From assembly GCA_001781435.1 (NCBI GenBank), contig MFLV01000011.1, positions 11,268 to 75,267 on the forward strand: a DNA stretch of 64,000 nt, given 5' to 3'. Source of the stretch: Candidatus Kaiserbacteria bacterium RIFCSPLOWO2_01_FULL_51_21 (GTDB lineage Bacteria > Patescibacteriota > Minisyncoccia > Phycocordibacterales > 2-01-FULL-51-21). The notes beneath the pieces were generated by a model. It saw nothing but the letters and a program-made list of their open reading frames with translations, did not search any database and had not been told where the DNA came from. Made by a program: the position numbers and the translations under genes. The first letter of the stretch is position 1; every line of letters starts with the position of its first letter. Below, in pieces: positions 2,086 through 17,272 of this stretch.

Positions 2086-3795
2086 TCACATCCGCTCGGG
2101 GGTTTTGATGCCAAGGAGAAAAAGACCATTCATCATGGTTTGGTGAAATGCTTTGGTGAGTGCAAGTTTGTAGGGAGATTCGGGGGTATCGTCAATTATT
2201 TTTTCTTTTGCGTACCAGCTGTTGAACGTGCCGGCAAGCTCGGTGAGAAACGTGGCGACATAGTGCGGCTCGTATTCCCGCGCCGCGCGCTCAACAATTT
2301 CAGGAAAACGATATAAGAGTCGTTCAATTTCAATAACCTCTTTCGGCACACGCTCGACGTTATCCGCGCTTCCCGCTCTTCCAAGAATGGAGTGAGCACG
2401 CGTTGCCGCGTATTGAAGATAAGGACCACTGTCGCCCTCAAACGAAACAGATTTTTCAAAATCAAAAACGATATCGCTCCCCATTCCTTGCTTGAGAATG
2501 GAATACTTGATGGCGCCAATTGCGATTGCCTCGATAGTCTCCTGCTCCTTCCCCGTCGCCCGTTCGCTCATTTTCTCCTTCACTCTTTTTGAAACTTCAT
2601 CGATAAGCGACTCGGCAGTAACAATGTCACCAGTGCGCGAGGACATTTTCCCAGACGGGAGCCGCAGCATCCCATGCGGAATATGCACGATTTTTTCCGC
2701 GAGTTTCGCGTTAATGCGGCGAAGCGCGGCAAGAACTACCTTGAAGTACTCGACTATCTCATTGCCCGTGATGGAAACAAAAATGTCAGCCGGGTGACGC
2801 TCCTCTTTTAGAAACGCCAGACCGATTTCTTTTGCTTCATAGGTTGGCAGTCCTTCGGAATTCAGAAACACGCGGGTATGGAGTCCTTCTTTTCCCCCAC
2901 GAAAAACTATAGCCCCCTCACTTTGTTCAAAAACTTCTGGGTGTTCTTCGACAATTCTTTTTCCATATACTCCGCTATAAGATTCAAAATAATAATAATC
3001 AAATCCTGTTCCAGTTTTTTCATTAAATGTTCCCAGTTTTTTATAAATTTTTTCAAATTCCCTGAATGATTCGGCTTTCCCTTCAGAATAAAGTTCTAAT
3101 AAATCCTTTTTTTTACTACCTTTTCCATAGAGGCTTTCATATATTTCTTTATTAATTTCTCGAATTTCTTTTTTGGCTTCCTCCTCTTCTTCATATTTAG
3201 CAGCACCCCATCCGTAAGCCTCTCCCCATTTAACATTTGGTTTCTTCATTTTCCCCCAAAGCGCCTTTGCAACATGAAGCCCGACATCACCCTGATAGCT
3301 TGCCCGCTTCACTTCCGCGCCGGAAAACTCAATGAGCCGCGCAATAGATTCACCAATCGCATTACTCATAAGATGCCCAATGTGAAATTCCTTGAATGGG
3401 TTCGGGTCGGTGTATTCCACCATTACCTTCTTTCCAAGAAGCATCTTGTTCTTTCCCCACTCTTCCCCCGATTCGAGAATTTTCCTTACATTACCGGCAA
3501 AAAAATCCCTTGAGAGAAAAAAGTTGATGAAACCGGCCCCCGCCACGTCAACTTTTTCCACCTCCTCCAGCTGCTGTTGTACGATATATCGTACAACTTT
3601 CTCGGCAAGCTCCCGTGGATTGCCGCCCTGCGATTTCGCCAGTACTAGCGCAACATTGCTCGCATAATCTCCGTGCAAGATATCGGCCGGATGCTCCAGA
3701 TAAATGTCGGGGATGGAGAGACCGAGACTTTTGAGCGCCTCCATTATCGACTGCTTGATTTTCTCAACAATCATTGCGGCCATTGTAGCACGCAC
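2086..3795 (-). CDS. argS: Arginyl-tRNA synthetase
   Basis: EFHIGHL (HIGH motif) and an ArgRS-like anticodon-binding C-terminus. It contains a K/E-rich low-complexity insert (KYEEEEEAKKEIREINKEIYESLYGKGSKKKDLLELY). Confidence 0.9.
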   Translation of the reverse strand: MRATMAAMIVEKIKQSIMEALKSLGLSIPDIYLEHPADILHGDYASNVALVLAKSQGGNPRELAEKVVRYIVQQQLEEVEKVDVAGAGFINFFLSRDFFAGNVRKILESGEEWGKNKMLLGKKVMVEYTDPNPFKEFHIGHLMSNAIGESIARLIEFSGAEVKRASYQGDVGLHVAKALWGKMKKPNVKWGEAYGWGAAKYEEEEEAKKEIREINKEIYESLYGKGSKKKDLLELYSEGKAESFREFEKIYKKLGTFNEKTGTGFDYYYFESYSGVYGKRIVEEHPEVFEQSEGAIVFRGGKEGLHTRVFLNSEGLPTYEAKEIGLAFLKEERHPADIFVSITGNEIVEYFKVVLAALRRINAKLAEKIVHIPHGMLRLPSGKMSSRTGDIVTAESLIDEVSKRVKEKMSERATGKEQETIEAIAIGAIKYSILKQGMGSDIVFDFEKSVSFEGDSGPYLQYAATRAHSILGRAGSADNVERVPKEVIEIERLLYRFPEIVERAAREYEPHYVATFLTELAGTFNSWYAKEKIIDDTPESPYKLALTKAFHQTMMNGLFLLGIKTPERM

Positions 3796-12514: not shown

Positions 12515-13159
12515 CTAATTAAGGGTATCAGCAAGCTTGTGGTTAACGTCGCGGTGATGCATCTCGTCGTTGCGGGTCGCAATAATGACTTCCCTGAGGC
12601 GCGCGGCAGGAGCAAGAGACCAATAGCGGATAGCGAGTGCGGGAGCAGGGATGTTTTTTCGCTCATTCGCCTCCACTTCCGCCAAATACTCGCTATAGCT
12701 GTGGACCGCGGCCTCTTCGAGATATCCGGCGAGACGATGAGCCGTGTGCGGAGAAAAAAGATAGATGCAGAAATAGCTCAAACCAAACACCCATTGCGCG
12801 ACAAATATCAGCAAACGCTCCAGAGACGTCGGCTGAGCGATATGAATAAACACCATCAAATGCATCCGCTCGTTTTCAGCCTCCGCAAGGAGGGTGCGTA
12901 TCCATCCACCATCGTCGCGAAGGTGGCGAAGCGCCTTGAAATGCTGCATCATCCCGCCGACCATCCCCGGCACCGCCGCAACCGTCTCAAGCACCACGGC
13001 ACGGTGTCCGTACCGCTCTCGAAAAAATGTATCCGCAACCCACAGGGCGAATCGCACCAGCCCATAGGCAACCGTGTCACGGAGACCGTGGGGTTTGTAG
13101 TGAAAGAAGAGCTGGTGCTCTGACACTATTATATTGTCCGGGGTAGCGTGTAGATGCAT
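12515..13159 (-). CDS. aox: Alternative oxidase (AOX/PTOX family di-iron ubiquinol oxidase)
   Basis: Diagnostic AOX motifs are present: LETVAAVPGMVGGM, NERMHL, LEEAAVHSY and RNDEMHHRDVNH. Confidence 0.75.
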   Translation of the reverse strand: MHLHATPDNIIVSEHQLFFHYKPHGLRDTVAYGLVRFALWVADTFFRERYGHRAVVLETVAAVPGMVGGMMQHFKALRHLRDDGGWIRTLLAEAENERMHLMVFIHIAQPTSLERLLIFVAQWVFGLSYFCIYLFSPHTAHRLAGYLEEAAVHSYSEYLAEVEANERKNIPAPALAIRYWSLAPAARLREVIIATRNDEMHHRDVNHKLADTLN

Positions 13160-14068: not shown

Positions 14069-14155
14069 TGGTGCGCGGGAGAGGATTTGAACCTCCAAGC
14101 CCTTACGGGCACCACCACCTCAAGATGGCGTGTCTACCGATTTCACCACCCGCGC
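14069..14155 (-). tRNA. Type II tRNA with a long variable arm; anticodon read as GAG (Leu)
   Basis: Reverse complement GCGCGGGTGGTGAAATCGGTAGACACGCCATCTTGAGGTGGTG...GGAGGTTCAAATCCTCTCCCGCGCACCA. Confidence 0.65.
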
Positions 14156-14814
14156 GCATTTTTGTCAAGTTTAAGCGCTTTATATATCTTTTCCTTCTTC
14201 CGCGCTAGACAGACAGCGGTATCGCTATAATACATTTTTTTAATAATTTTCAAAGACTCTTTCTTAGCATACTTAAGCTGGTAGGTAGAACCTTTACCGT
14301 CCTTTGTAATATGCCCTATTACTTCTGACCTCACCCGGAGCGATTGCCGGATCCAATCAATAAAACTCTTACTTGCAGAAGCTAACTGTAAGTAGTACAT
14401 GAAACTTGAACGCCACCGTGGATCCCAATAAGAATAAAAAGATCCGTCACCGTCAAAACATCCGCGCAGAAAATCAAAAAAATACTGCTGAGGAACATCG
14501 ACTGCTCCAATGGTCTTTGACTTGGCAGGCGTTAATCCAATACCAAGTAGAAACTGATAAAACAAAATATCCCCGAATTGAACACGGAAGTAATCTCGTT
14601 TTTTATGTCCACTGGAGTGTTTGGCCAATTTAGAGTCAAGACCGAGACAATGTTTGAATGTTTTAAGCTGTTCAATGTCTTTTGACACAAGAACGATATG
14701 GTATCCATCAATTGAAAGACACCCATCGGTCGCAATAAGTCCAATTGCATAGGCAAATTCCGGCGACCATTTAATTTTTACTTTTCCCTTTGGCTTTACC
14801 CCTCTTGCTCCCAC
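14143..14814 (-). mobile_element. Free-standing LAGLIDADG homing endonuclease gene (two-motif, single-chain type); its 3' end overlaps tRNA-Leu by 13 nt
   Basis: Two LAGLIDADG motifs, YAIGLIATDGCL and FLRGCFDGDGSF. The gene is markedly more AT-rich than its flanks. Confidence 0.8.
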
Positions 14815-14904: not shown

Positions 14905-15357
14905 CTATACCGCCGCTACTTCTGCGGGAGATTCTTTATTGTCAGGGGTTTTTAAAACTACCTGTTGCGACCGGCGCATTTGTTTGCGGATTTCTTTTGC
15001 CGCTTTGTTGCGAATATAGTAGAGCTTCGCGCGCCGCACGCGGCTCCGAGACACCTTTTCAATCTTATCGATTGCCGGAGAATAGAGCGGAAATACCCGT
15101 TCAACTCCTACCCCATCAATAACCCGACGTATGGTAAATGTCGCGCCTGCCTCACTGCCATGCTTGCGTGCAAGCACGAGCCCCTCAAATGCCTGGAGGC
15201 GCGCATTCTTCGTCGTTACCTCTTTTTTGTTGGCAGCTTTGGTGTGTTTCAATTCCTCAATTTTTTGCCACACACGCACGGTGTCGCCGGGGCGAACATC
15301 GAGTTTTTTGCGCTCTTCCATATTTACCGGAGAGATTTTGATTTCTGGCATTTTCAT
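14905..15357 (-). CDS. rplS: Ribosomal protein L19
   Basis: [11 protein letters not shown]...[13 protein letters not shown]...[19 protein letters not shown]. Confidence 0.9.
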
Positions 15358-15399
15358 GACGCGAATACTCTAACACGAGCATCACCGCTCCGCAAGAAT

Positions 15400-15520
15400 C
15401 TTTGGTAATGTGCAAGCACATATGGCGGTTGACGTTGACATTCCACCTGCCGTCATTGCGATTCGCGTTGACAACCGAGACGTTTGCGTGCCTCGCGCCA
15501 CCCATACCACCATCCATTGA
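15400..15520 (-). pseudogene. Degenerate duplicate of the 3' end of the upstream 254-aa gene
   Basis: DNA at 15400-15500 is about 75% identical to 15760-15840. Translations VVNANRNDGRWNVNVNRH and VVFAGRRDGGWDVDVYRL align. Confidence 0.45.
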
Positions 15521-15706
15521 ATTCTCTCCGGATTGTATCGGATTCGGAGTCGGAACTCCTTAGTGTGCGGCACCAACTCGTTTCTTTTTTACGGGATTTG
15601 CACCCGAAACCTCGCCACCCGAAGCTTGCGCCGCGGATGCCAGCGTGTTCACATAAAAATATACCTCTCCTTTCGCCGAAGCGAAAGGAGAGGTAGTGAC
15701 CAAGGG

Positions 15707-16471
15707 TCACAGAGTCGCAGCGTCCGAGTTGCGGACAAAGAGGCGGTAGTCGGCATCCCAGCGATAGCCGTAGTCGAGCCGGTAGACGTCGACATCCCAC
15801 CCGCCGTCACGGCGACCCGCGAAGACAACCGAGACGAGATCGTTCTTGTCGATGACGAAAAAGAAGTTCGCCCAGCTATCGGTACGCAGACCGACATTCG
15901 TGCCCTTCTCTTGGCGCTCGATGAGCGATTCGATTTGGGGCAAAGCGAAAACGTGGTTTCGTTCGACGAGGAACGAAACCAGTTCGCCGACGTCTCGTGT
16001 CGAGACCTTAAGGACGGCTTGCGCCATCTCAATGAAGGTCAGCTCTTGGCCCAGTGCATAGATTGAGGCCGGGCTGGGAACTTCTGCTCCCTGTTTGGTC
16101 GACAGCCAGCGATCGATGTTGCCGTCGCGATAGCCGTAGAGGTTTTCGCGGAAGCAGTCCTCCGTCTTCTTTTCGGCGGTTGCCGGAAGTTGCACCAGTC
16201 CCCCGATGCGGTTGAGCACCGCGGCAGGAGGAGCGGTGGAAACGGAGTGCGGCTCGGGCACCACCCTATTGAAGCGCCCCTCGATTGCGTCTTGCAGATA
16301 CGCCTTTAGCTCTTCTGGGTTGAACGGATAGCCGTTCGGCTGCCGTAACTGCCTTCCAAGCTCGAAGAGCTGGCCGGTGATGGATTCGTACAAATCGCCT
16401 GCGACCTGTGCGGCCATGACGATATCTCCTTTAGTTTGAAAAGAGCTGTCCCGGGGAGCGGAAACCCACAC
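15707..16471 (-). CDS. Hypothetical protein on a GC-rich island (function unknown)
   Basis: Long ORF of about 60% GC versus about 50% in the surroundings. C-terminus ...GRRDGGWDVDVYRLDYGYRWDADYRLF. A likely start is at MAAQVAGD (16417). Confidence 0.5.
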   Translation of the reverse strand: MWVSAPRDSSFQTKGDIVMAAQVAGDLYESITGQLFELGRQLRQPNGYPFNPEELKAYLQDAIEGRFNRVVPEPHSVSTAPPAAVLNRIGGLVQLPATAEKKTEDCFRENLYGYRDGNIDRWLSTKQGAEVPSPASIYALGQELTFIEMAQAVLKVSTRDVGELVSFLVERNHVFALPQIESLIERQEKGTNVGLRTDSWANFFFVIDKNDLVSVVFAGRRDGGWDVDVYRLDYGYRWDADYRLFVRNSDAATL

Positions 16472-16513
16472 CCGTCAGCTGAATATAATTATACATCACT
16501 GGACGCCATATTG

Positions 16514-17272
16514 TCAAGCTGTCGTCTGGGTAAGTATTTTTTCGGCTTTTTCGAAATCTTCCGGAAGCGGTGTCTCAAGTTTTATGCGGGCGCCGGAGGG
16601 CAAGCTAAGTTCGAGCGAAAGGGCATGGAGTGCGAGGCGAGTAAACCCGAGCGCACAGGGGCGATTTGGCGCGTAGAGCTTATCACAGACAATTGGATGC
16701 CGAAGTGCTTTAAAGTGCACGCGGATTTGATGGGTACGGCCGGATTTGGGAGAAACTTCAACAAACGAAAACTGCGGCGTCGAAGAAAGCACGCGATACT
16801 CGGTCACCGCTTCACGCAAGGTACCGCGTGCATCGCGCTCGGCGGACCAGAGCGGAAAATCCTTGCGGCTTTTGCCGATGGGAAGATTGATTGTCCCCTG
16901 TTTTTCAGGAAGCGCGCCGTATACAAACGCATTGTAGATTTTTTTGACGCGGCGGTTTTTGAACTCGTTTTTGAGATACTCAAATGCTTTCTGATTTTTC
17001 GCAAGAATCATGATGCCCGAAGTGTCGCGGTCAAGCCGATGCACGATGCCCGGCCTCAAGATTTCACGTCCATCAGAAAGAGAGCCACGCTCACCGATTT
17101 CCGCGAGCGCCGGATAGCGCCGTAAAATCCAGTCCACAAGAGTAGGTTCCTCTGTCTTCCCCCCTGCATGAACCGCAAGACCACTCGACTTATTGACCGC
17201 GAGCACATCAGCGTCTTCGTAGACAACCGTGACATCACTTTCCGAAATTTCGTTTGCGTTTTGAGAATTCAT
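16514..17272 (-). CDS. RluA-family pseudouridine synthase
   Basis: HRLDRDTSGIMILAK catalytic motif. The start is taken at MNSQNAN to avoid overlapping uppS. Confidence 0.8.
   Translation of the reverse strand: MNSQNANEISESDVTVVYEDADVLAVNKSSGLAVHAGGKTEEPTLVDWILRRYPALAEIGERGSLSDGREILRPGIVHRLDRDTSGIMILAKNQKAFEYLKNEFKNRRVKKIYNAFVYGALPEKQGTINLPIGKSRKDFPLWSAERDARGTLREAVTEYRVLSSTPQFSFVEVSPKSGRTHQIRVHFKALRHPIVCDKLYAPNRPCALGFTRLALHALSLELSLPSGARIKLETPLPEDFEKAEKILTQTTA

What the first reader, a model, noticed from the sequence alone, without database searches (positions are those of the whole stretch)
15380..16480. GC-rich island with an unknown 254-aa gene and a degenerate duplicate of its own 3' end
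The region 15707-16471 is about 60% GC and encodes a protein with no recognisable motifs and an unusual W/D/Y-rich C-terminus (GGWDVDVYRLDYGYRWDADY). About 200 bp downstream, 15400-15500 repeats the last ~100 nt of the gene at about 75% identity. This is a partial tandem duplication or a recombination scar. It sits next to the LAGLIDADG gene, so the compositional shift plus the duplication suggests a foreign insertion.
Basis: seen in the sequence. Interest (0 to 1): 0.5.

Follow-up and report, generated by a model that had tools for sequence, protein, structure and literature searches.

The report
Decayed diversity-generating retroelement, half template left
The "degenerate duplicate" is the surviving half of the template repeat of a diversity-generating retroelement, a system that rewrites the end of a gene by error-prone reverse transcription; this groundwater bacterium has lost the reverse transcriptase, so the once-hypervariable gene is now frozen.

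Summary
The repeat is real but shorter than reported: 57-61 nt (15426-15486 vs 15780-15840, minus strand), 82% identical. On the coding strand, all 10 mismatches in the 57-nt core put an adenine (AAC/AAT codons) in the intergenic copy against a non-adenine in the gene copy (P = 2e-8). That is the signature of a diversity-generating retroelement (DGR) template repeat (TR) and variable repeat (VR).

The gene (236 aa from ATG 16417, not 254) belongs to a family of DGR target proteins from Candidate Phyla Radiation (CPR) bacteria. Relatives carry complete cassettes: target, 106-135-nt TR, Avd, reverse transcriptase (RT). A close relative (L033) has the intact cassette at this same site upstream of rplS. 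Another relative (L035) has rluD directly next to rplS, an empty site.

The window therefore holds an inserted DGR cassette that later lost about 1.45 kb: the 3' half of the TR, avd and the RT. I found no RT or Avd in the 64 kb. The VR is identical in all 18 contigs that carry the gene, so the element looks dead.

The predicted target fold is weakly C-type-lectin-like. High GC is typical of these target genes. The LAGLIDADG gene is unrelated.

A covarying ~110-nt three-way-junction RNA just 5' of the TR (15482-15590) is conserved in CPR DGRs and has no Rfam match.

The parts
16488..16517 (-). Promoter-like site of the target gene (TTGACA, 18 nt, TATAAT; 12 of 12). It overlaps the rluD stop codon.
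15707..16417 (-). DGR target (variable-protein) gene, 236 aa. The annotated 254-aa form starts at GTG 16471.
16265..16417 (-). Conserved N-terminal two-helix module (about 50 aa, VAGDLYESITGQLFELGRQLRQPNGYPF...AIEGRF), shared by many CPR proteins.
15726..15840 (-). Variable repeat (VR), full ancestral extent, defined by alignment to the intact TR of L033.
15780..15840 (-). The part of the VR that still has a TR partner in the window.
15662..15695 (-). 15-bp hairpin with a UUCG loop followed by a U run; terminator-like, after the target gene. Similar hairpins follow the target gene in most relatives checked.
15482..15590 (-). Conserved three-way-junction RNA element that directly precedes the TR in CPR DGR cassettes; intact here.
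   Evidence: No Rfam match.
15426..15486 (-). Template repeat (TR) remnant: the 5' half only, with AAC/AAT codons.
15404..15425 (-). 22 nt between the deletion junction (15425/15426) and the rluD relic. Origin unassigned; possibly the extreme 3' end of the lost RT gene.
15358..15403 (-). Relic of the ancestral rluD 3' end plus the rluD-rplS spacer. It aligns to the empty-site relatives L035/L036 and to the 3' end of the RT ORF in L033.
16532..16541 (-). Left copy (AAAAATACTT, inside the rluD 3' end) of an imperfect 10-nt direct repeat flanking the inserted block. The right copy, AAAGATTCTT, is at 15394-15403.
14905..15357 (-). rplS (ribosomal protein L19), the host gene immediately downstream of the remnant.

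Best explanation
The region is the inactivated remnant of a CPR-type diversity-generating retroelement in a Candidatus Kaiserbacteria genome.

A complete cassette was inserted at the 3' end of rluD, about 45 nt upstream of rplS. Its order was: target gene, structured RNA, TR, avd on the opposite strand, RT.

While the cassette was active, TR RNA was reverse-transcribed with misincorporation at adenines, and the cDNA overwrote the VR in the last ~115 nt of the target gene. This changed the Asn (AAY) codons of the template into F, G, R, D and Y codons, which explains the odd W/D/Y-rich C-terminus.

A later deletion of about 1.45 kb removed the 3' half of the TR, avd and all or nearly all of the RT gene. 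It joined the 5' half of the TR to the rplS upstream region. The priming and Avd-binding RNA just downstream of the TR was presumably lost with it (inferred from the deletion span; these elements were not mapped in L033).

The target gene is intact and has a consensus promoter, a ribosome-binding site and a terminator-like hairpin, but its VR is now frozen.

Shown here: the adenine-specific repeat, the truncation, the intact syntenic cassette, the empty site, the absence of RT and Avd in the window, and the invariant VR.

Inferred: the order of events, and that the remnant cannot be reverse-transcribed.
For: (1) Adenine-specific mismatches: 10 of 10 in 57 nt, P = 2.3e-8, and 13 of 14 in 61 nt. 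The TR copy reads VSVVNANRNDGRWNVNVNR in the target's frame.

(2) Family members carry full cassettes. VR/TR pairs are 106-135 nt with 8-23 A-mismatches and 0-3 others. RVT_1 reverse transcriptases with YADD or YCDD, and bAvd on the opposite strand, were found in eight of them.

(3) P0019, P0021 and P0027 are one 219-aa protein differing at only 12 positions, nearly all at adenine-containing (mostly Asn) codons of the TR. DGRs in this family are therefore active elsewhere.

(4) L033 (L19 77% identical) has target, TR (3489-3602), avd, RT (with LGNLTSQ and YADD), rplS and LAGLIDADG in that order. The window aligns to it up to 15426 and again from 15360, so 1,488 nt of L033 correspond to only 65 nt in the window.

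(5) The window VR shares all five substitutions specific to the window's own TR relative to the L033 TR. It was therefore written from its own TR after the two lineages split. The 3' half of the VR differs from the L033 TR at 5 adenines and 1 other position.

(6) L035/L036 have rluD next to rplS with no cassette, and window 15358-15403 aligns to their rluD 3' end.

(7) tblastn with four RTs and two Avds from relatives finds nothing in the window. No [YF]xDD motif occurs in any ORF of 150 aa or more. The window has only one copy of the TR-associated RNA.

(8) The exact protein is on 18 contigs. The 90% cluster holds no variant. Five assemblies are 100% identical over 15300-16600 or up to their contig ends.

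(9) In the Bordetella phage DGR, cDNA synthesis needs RNA downstream of the TR: the priming adenosine and the Avd-binding stem-loop (bioRxiv 10.1101/2023.10.23.563531). The region downstream of the TR is missing here, while intact relatives have a GC hairpin right after the TR.
Against: I could read only 64 kb of a genome whose contig is over 100 kb, so an RT elsewhere in the genome cannot be excluded.

The 120 closest homologues of the L033 RT include none named from this genome, but that list is not exhaustive.

VR invariance rests on assemblies that may all sample one clonal population.

The right-hand deletion breakpoint is only placed to within about 25 nt.

Confidence: 0.9

Rival explanations
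1. It is a still-active DGR with an unusually short TR, served in trans by an RT and Avd encoded elsewhere in the genome. Only the first half of the VR would be diversified.
For: The TR remnant has no non-adenine difference from the VR. The upstream structured RNA is intact. Two relatives (L015, L021) also have a TR without an adjacent RT. The rest of the genome was not available.
Against: The syntenic relative shows the TR was 114 nt and is cut in the middle here. Everything 3' of the TR is gone, which in the studied DGR includes the primer and the Avd-binding element. No VR variant exists among 18 contigs or in the 90% cluster. No RT, Avd or second TR-associated RNA is in the 64 kb.
Confidence: 0.05
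2. It is a plain partial duplication of the gene's 3' region, or a recombination scar that has diverged by ordinary mutation, with no retroelement involved.
For: Two similar segments lie 354 nt apart on the same strand.
Against: Ordinary divergence would not place all 10 mismatches on adenines of one copy (P = 2e-8). The same arrangement next to RT and Avd genes is seen in relatives and in the syntenic locus L033.
Confidence: 0.02
3. The truncation is an assembly artefact: the real genome has the full TR, avd and RT, and the assembler collapsed them.
For: DGR repeats can confuse assemblers. Two short Logan contigs both stop at 15569, before the junction.
Against: Three independent assemblies span the junction and are 100% identical to the window (L028-L030). 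The missing segment is not bounded by the VR/TR repeat, so a repeat collapse would not produce this junction.
Confidence: 0.02

Closest known systems
CPR (Patescibacteria) DGRs: the 'CPR set' of Wu et al. 2018 (PMC5758913), in which the B3 architecture (a subtype with avd, TR and RT) predominates, and DGR clade 2 of Roux et al. 2021 (PMC8144416)
   Same: The host group is the same. The relatives fetched here show the order target, TR, avd (opposite strand), RT. Targets are small proteins with no recognisable domain and a VR at the extreme C-terminus. Mismatches are adenine-specific.
   Different: The window copy has lost the RT, avd and the 3' half of the TR, and its VR does not vary. I did not check whether this exact target family matches one of the 'unknown VR' classes (UVR1-6) of Wu et al.
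Bordetella phage BPP-1 DGR (Mtd target, bRT, Avd, TR with flanking RNA)
   Same: Both show TR-to-VR information flow with adenine mutagenesis. The RT of the syntenic relative is homologous to a 328-aa PDB 'Reverse transcriptase' (8ub7, E = 2e-41), which I believe, from memory, is bRT. A stem-loop sits just downstream of the TR in intact relatives, like the Avd-binding stem-loop.
   Different: The gene order and avd orientation differ. CPR cassettes have a ~110-nt three-way-junction RNA 5' of the TR. That study's cross-DGR survey looked at only 40 nt upstream of the TR. The window element is non-functional.
Treponema denticola TvpA and other C-type-lectin-fold DGR variable proteins

Membership tests
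Diversity-generating retroelement (functional cassette) | A TR/VR near-repeat whose mismatches fall (almost) only on TR adenines | tested here: met
   10 of 10 mismatches at adenines in 57 nt, 13 of 14 in 61 nt; P = 2.3e-8
Diversity-generating retroelement (functional cassette) | The VR lies at the 3' end of a protein-coding target gene | tested here: met
   VR 15726-15840 lies within the last 134 nt of the 236-aa gene
Diversity-generating retroelement (functional cassette) | A DGR-type reverse transcriptase gene near the TR | tested here: not met
   No tblastn hit with four RTs from relatives, and no [YF]xDD ORF of 150 aa or more in the 64 kb. The RT is present in the syntenic locus L033.
Diversity-generating retroelement (functional cassette) | A complete TR with its 3' flanking RNA (priming and Avd-binding elements) | tested here: not met
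   The TR ends at 15426 after 57-61 nt, against 114 nt in L033. The downstream hairpin seen in relatives is absent.
Diversity-generating retroelement (functional cassette) | Accessory protein Avd | tested here: not met
   No tblastn hit in the window. bAvd or DivGenRetAVD hits occur in relatives.
Diversity-generating retroelement (functional cassette) | Ongoing VR diversification in populations | tested here: not met
   The exact protein is on 18 contigs, the 90% cluster has no variant, and five assemblies are identical. Read-level data were not available.
C-type-lectin-fold DGR variable proteins | The VR is displayed on a CLec / FGE-like fold | tested here: inconclusive
CPR DGR target family with the conserved N-terminal module | N-terminal motif VAGELYESITGQLFEIGRQLRQPNGYPF...LQ.AIEGRF followed by a hypervariable C-terminus | tested here: met
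   23 invariant columns, all within the first ~50 residues of the query, across 38 sequences. 317 clusters at 50% identity match the 55-aa module.

The most novel reading that the evidence does not exclude
The ~110-nt three-way-junction RNA that abuts the 5' end of the TR (window 15482-15590) may be an undescribed, conserved module of CPR DGR RNAs. It could be the scaffold that recruits RT-Avd, or the element that stops cDNA synthesis at the TR boundary.

In this window it survives intact after the RT was lost. A possible reason is that its promoter now drives the essential rplS gene, which sits 125 nt downstream.
Probability: 0.4. Interest if true: 0.55.

Novelty: new member of a known kind. 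Interest (0 to 1): 0.35.

Why it matters
The finding itself is ordinary biology once recognised. DGRs are known to be abundant in CPR bacteria, and this copy is dead.

It is still a clean, datable example of how a DGR decays. The intact cassette, the empty site and the truncated remnant are all available at one chromosomal position in related genomes. Other family members show further stages of loss.

The locus also shows that a hypervariable receptor-like gene can be kept, with a strong promoter, after its diversifier is gone.

The by-product may matter more. A strongly covarying RNA structure sits immediately 5' of the TR in CPR DGRs and is not in Rfam. It is directly testable as part of the retroelement ribonucleoprotein.

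Tried and rejected
- Pfam and NCBIfam on the target protein: no hits.
- A PDB sequence search with a profile built from the family alignment: nothing.
- Rfam on the whole window at gathering thresholds, and on 15300-15760 at E <= 1: only tRNAs, and nothing in the intergenic region.
- Search for an RT from the same genome among the 120 best homologues of the L033 RT: none carried this genome's locus-tag prefixes. This is inconclusive, because at least 8000 CPR RTs score better than 1e-30.
- Literature search for Kaiserbacteria plus DGR: nothing.
- The closest full-length homologues fetched first (L001, L003, L004) have neither a TR nor an RT. This briefly suggested the repeat might be idiosyncratic, until other relatives with full cassettes were found.
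- P0383 (1169 aa, 8 'stretches') looked like a multi-copy form of the N-terminal module. It is an unrelated repeat protein.
- A link to the LAGLIDADG gene was considered and dropped. That gene lies beyond rplS and is conserved there in L033, which has the intact cassette.
- A crude dN/dS between the window and L033 targets (0.43 for the scaffold) is unreliable, because the N-terminal parts are not homologous.

Full report
**The observation**

The ORF 15707-16471 (-) exists. Its GC is 58.6% against a window mean of 50.0% (z = 2.5), and its GC3 is 0.72 against about 0.52 in the neighbouring genes. It has no Pfam or NCBIfam hit.

The repeat is real but shorter than described. 15426-15482 matches 15780-15836 over 57 nt without gaps at 82% identity. 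It can be extended by 4 nt that hold three more mismatches of the same kind. The last 73 nt of the gene have no partner in the window.

The protein most likely starts at ATG 16417 (236 aa). All homologues begin MA..VAGELYES. A 12/12 consensus promoter at 16517->16488 leaves the annotated GTG 16471 almost at the transcript start.

**What the repeat is**

Read on the coding (minus) strand, every one of the 10 mismatches in the 57-nt core has an adenine in the intergenic copy and a non-adenine in the gene copy. None of the 43 non-adenine positions differs (hypergeometric P = 2.3e-8).

In the gene's frame the intergenic copy reads VSVVNANRNDGRWNVNVNR, with Asn encoded by AAC/AAT. The gene reads VSVVFAGRRDGGWDVDVYR. 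This is the defining signature of a DGR, with a TR at 15426-15486 and a VR inside the gene. It also explains the odd D/Y/W-rich C-terminus: these residues are what AAY codons become after adenine mutagenesis.

**The family**

The protein is from Candidatus Kaiserbacteria, recovered from groundwater metagenomes. Homologues are CPR proteins of about 180-250 aa. They have an almost invariant ~50-aa N-terminal module and a hypervariable C-terminus. The module alone matches 317 clusters at 50% identity.

Three database proteins (P0019, P0021, P0027) are identical except at 12 positions, nearly all of which lie at adenine-containing (mostly Asn) codons of their TR. DGRs in this family are therefore active elsewhere.

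I fetched 21 genomic loci.
- Eleven have a VR/TR pair of 106-135 nt on the same strand, with 8-23 adenine mismatches and 0-3 others.
- Eight of those continue with bAvd on the opposite strand and an RVT_1 reverse transcriptase carrying YADD or YCDD.
- Three are further decay stages: L015 (TR plus an Avd fragment, no RT), L021 (TR only) and L018 (RNA element plus an RT C-terminal fragment).
- Several have neither a TR nor an RT.

**The decisive comparison**

I used the neighbouring L19 protein to find close relatives.

Locus L033 (L19 77% identical) carries, in order: target, TR (3489-3602, 114 nt, 18 adenine mismatches and 1 other), avd (opposite strand), RT (with LGNLTSQ and YADD), rplS, LAGLIDADG, ZIP, AOX, SIMPL. 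Downstream of the cassette this is the same context as the window.

The window aligns to L033 from inside the target gene down to 15426, and again from 15360 onward. 1,488 nt of L033 therefore correspond to only 65 nt in the window. The window's TR stops at ...GTCAACCG, exactly where L033 (and L007) continue with about 50 more nt of TR, then avd and the RT.

The window VR carries all five substitutions that distinguish the window's TR from L033's TR. It was therefore written from its own TR after the two lineages split. The 3' half of the VR differs from the L033 TR at five adenines and one other base.

Loci L035/L036 (L19 73% identical) have acylphosphatase, uppS, rluD and rplS with no cassette. 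Window 15358-15403 aligns to their rluD 3' end and rluD-rplS spacer, and the 3' end of the L033 RT ORF runs into the same sequence. Relative to this empty site, the window holds an insertion from about 16531 to 15404. The insertion is flanked by an imperfect 10-nt direct repeat.

**Is it still working?**

- tblastn with four RTs and two Avds from relatives finds nothing in the 64 kb, and no ORF of 150 aa or more has a [YF]xDD motif.
- The exact protein occurs on 18 contigs from several samples, and its 90% cluster contains no variant.
- Five independent assemblies are 100% identical to the window over 15300-16600 or up to their ends, and three of them span the junction.
- In the studied Bordetella phage DGR, cDNA synthesis requires RNA downstream of the TR: the priming adenosine and the Avd-binding stem-loop, plus a duplex between upstream and downstream RNA (bioRxiv 10.1101/2023.10.23.563531). 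Intact relatives have a GC-rich hairpin right after the TR. The window has lost that region.

I conclude that the element is dead and the VR is frozen. An RT elsewhere in the unread part of the genome cannot be excluded (one search was inconclusive).

**The target protein**

AlphaFold2 with the family alignment gives pLDDT 88. The model has an N-terminal helical hairpin and a compact alpha/beta domain whose last strands carry the VR. Foldseek against the PDB finds nothing significant.

**A conserved RNA next to the TR**

The spacer between the target gene and the TR is conserved across distant cassettes. RNAalifold on 12 sequences predicts a three-way junction of 23 pairs:
- P1, 12 bp, closing the junction;
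- P2, a 4-bp hairpin;
- P3, 7 bp with a variable loop.

It ends a few nt before the TR, and 19 of the 23 pairs show compensatory changes. 96.4% of cells form pairs, against 32-52% when the 3' partners are slid, and none of 500 shuffles reaches the observed covariation.

A covariance model finds one copy in the window (15482-15590, 96.9 bits). It also finds copies it was not trained on:
- the decayed locus L018;
- two cassettes reached through RT homologues, Giovannonibacteria CP066687.1 and a Jorgensenbacteria scaffold, where the element ends at the TR start.

Rfam 15 has no match at E <= 1. [quoted passage not shown] I could not establish whether the motif found here has been described elsewhere.

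**Composition and neighbours**

Target genes in most cassettes checked are GC-rich relative to their locus. For example, the values are 0.59 vs 0.44 in L011 and 0.61 vs 0.49 in L033, while the RT genes are not GC-rich. The 'GC island' is therefore a property of this gene class rather than proof of recent transfer.

The LAGLIDADG gene (40.6% GC) lies beyond rplS. It is conserved there in L033, is absent in L035, and shows no connection with the DGR.

**Verdict**

This is a known kind of system (a CPR-type DGR) in a decayed state, so I call it a new member of a known kind. Confidence in the DGR-remnant reading is 0.9. Interest is modest (0.35), and most of it comes from the RNA element and the well-resolved decay series.

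Noticed in passing
window 15482-15590 (-); also L033 3384-3492, L037 3367-3475, L039 3391-3502, L018 10701-10813: A ~110-nt three-way-junction RNA lies directly 5' of the TR in CPR DGR cassettes. 19 of 23 pairs show compensatory changes, and it has no Rfam match. It may be an undescribed part of the DGR RNA.
   Followed up: partly
window 16265-16417 (-), protein residues 1-51: This N-terminal two-helix module is almost invariant and is found in 317 clusters at 50% identity, nearly all 180-250 aa. It is sometimes duplicated (P0362, P0365) or fused to other C-termini (P0428). The syntenic target in L033 has a different N-terminus, so the module is swappable. Its function is unknown.
   Followed up: partly
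window 16532-16541 and 15394-15403: An imperfect 10-nt direct repeat (AAAAATACTT / AAAGATTCTT) flanks the inserted cassette relative to the empty site in L035. It looks like a target-site duplication, which would imply the whole cassette moved as a unit.
   Followed up: partly
L015 1272-1861, L018 10552-10955, L021 2516-3323, and L001/L003/L014/L023/L025: Other family members show different decay stages: TR plus an Avd fragment without the RNA element or RT; RNA element plus an RT C-terminal fragment without a TR; TR alone; and target genes with nothing left. Loss of the diversifier seems common in this family.
   Followed up: partly
just after the target-gene stop codon: window 15696-15706, and the matching positions in L007, L017, L018, L021, L023, L025, L033: Short CYTTGGWC-like motifs (for example CCCTTGGTCAC, ACTTGGACCC, and repeated CCTTTGAC) recur just after the stop codon of target genes, before the terminator-like hairpin. 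Unexplained; they could be a DGR target-recognition element.
   Followed up: no
target genes in L033, L007, L011, L020, L037, L039 and the window: CPR DGR target genes are consistently more GC-rich than their genomic surroundings (GC3 0.72-0.78 in five of them, and third codon positions C-rich and A-poor), while the adjacent RT genes are not.
   Followed up: partly
window 14143-14814 (-): A free-standing LAGLIDADG ORF (40.6% GC, GC3 0.37) lies between rplS and two tRNA genes, overlapping the tRNA at 14072-14155 by 13 nt. It is conserved at the same place in L033 and absent in L035.
   Followed up: partly
window 12515-13159 (-): An alternative oxidase gene (Pfam AOX, E = 4e-74), which I believe is unusual for this group (from memory, not checked here), sits in this CPR genome next to ZIP transporter and SIMPL genes. 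The same cluster is present in L033.
   Followed up: no
L031 and L032 (Logan contigs), both ending at window coordinate 15569: Two contigs from different sequencing runs break at the same base, inside the conserved spacer upstream of the RNA element. The cause may be k-mers shared with other DGR cassettes in the community, or strain variation.
   Followed up: no
L029 1-2904: One assembly has a different context upstream of the target gene (a PMT_2 glycosyltransferase on the opposite strand and a shortened rluD). This suggests structural variation in the population.
   Followed up: no
window 15707-15835 vs L033 (VR to the end of the gene): Synonymous divergence between the window and L033 is far lower from the VR to the stop codon (dS about 0.21) than in the rest of the gene (about 1.25). 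This fits repeated overwriting from a conserved TR. The estimate is crude.
   Followed up: partly
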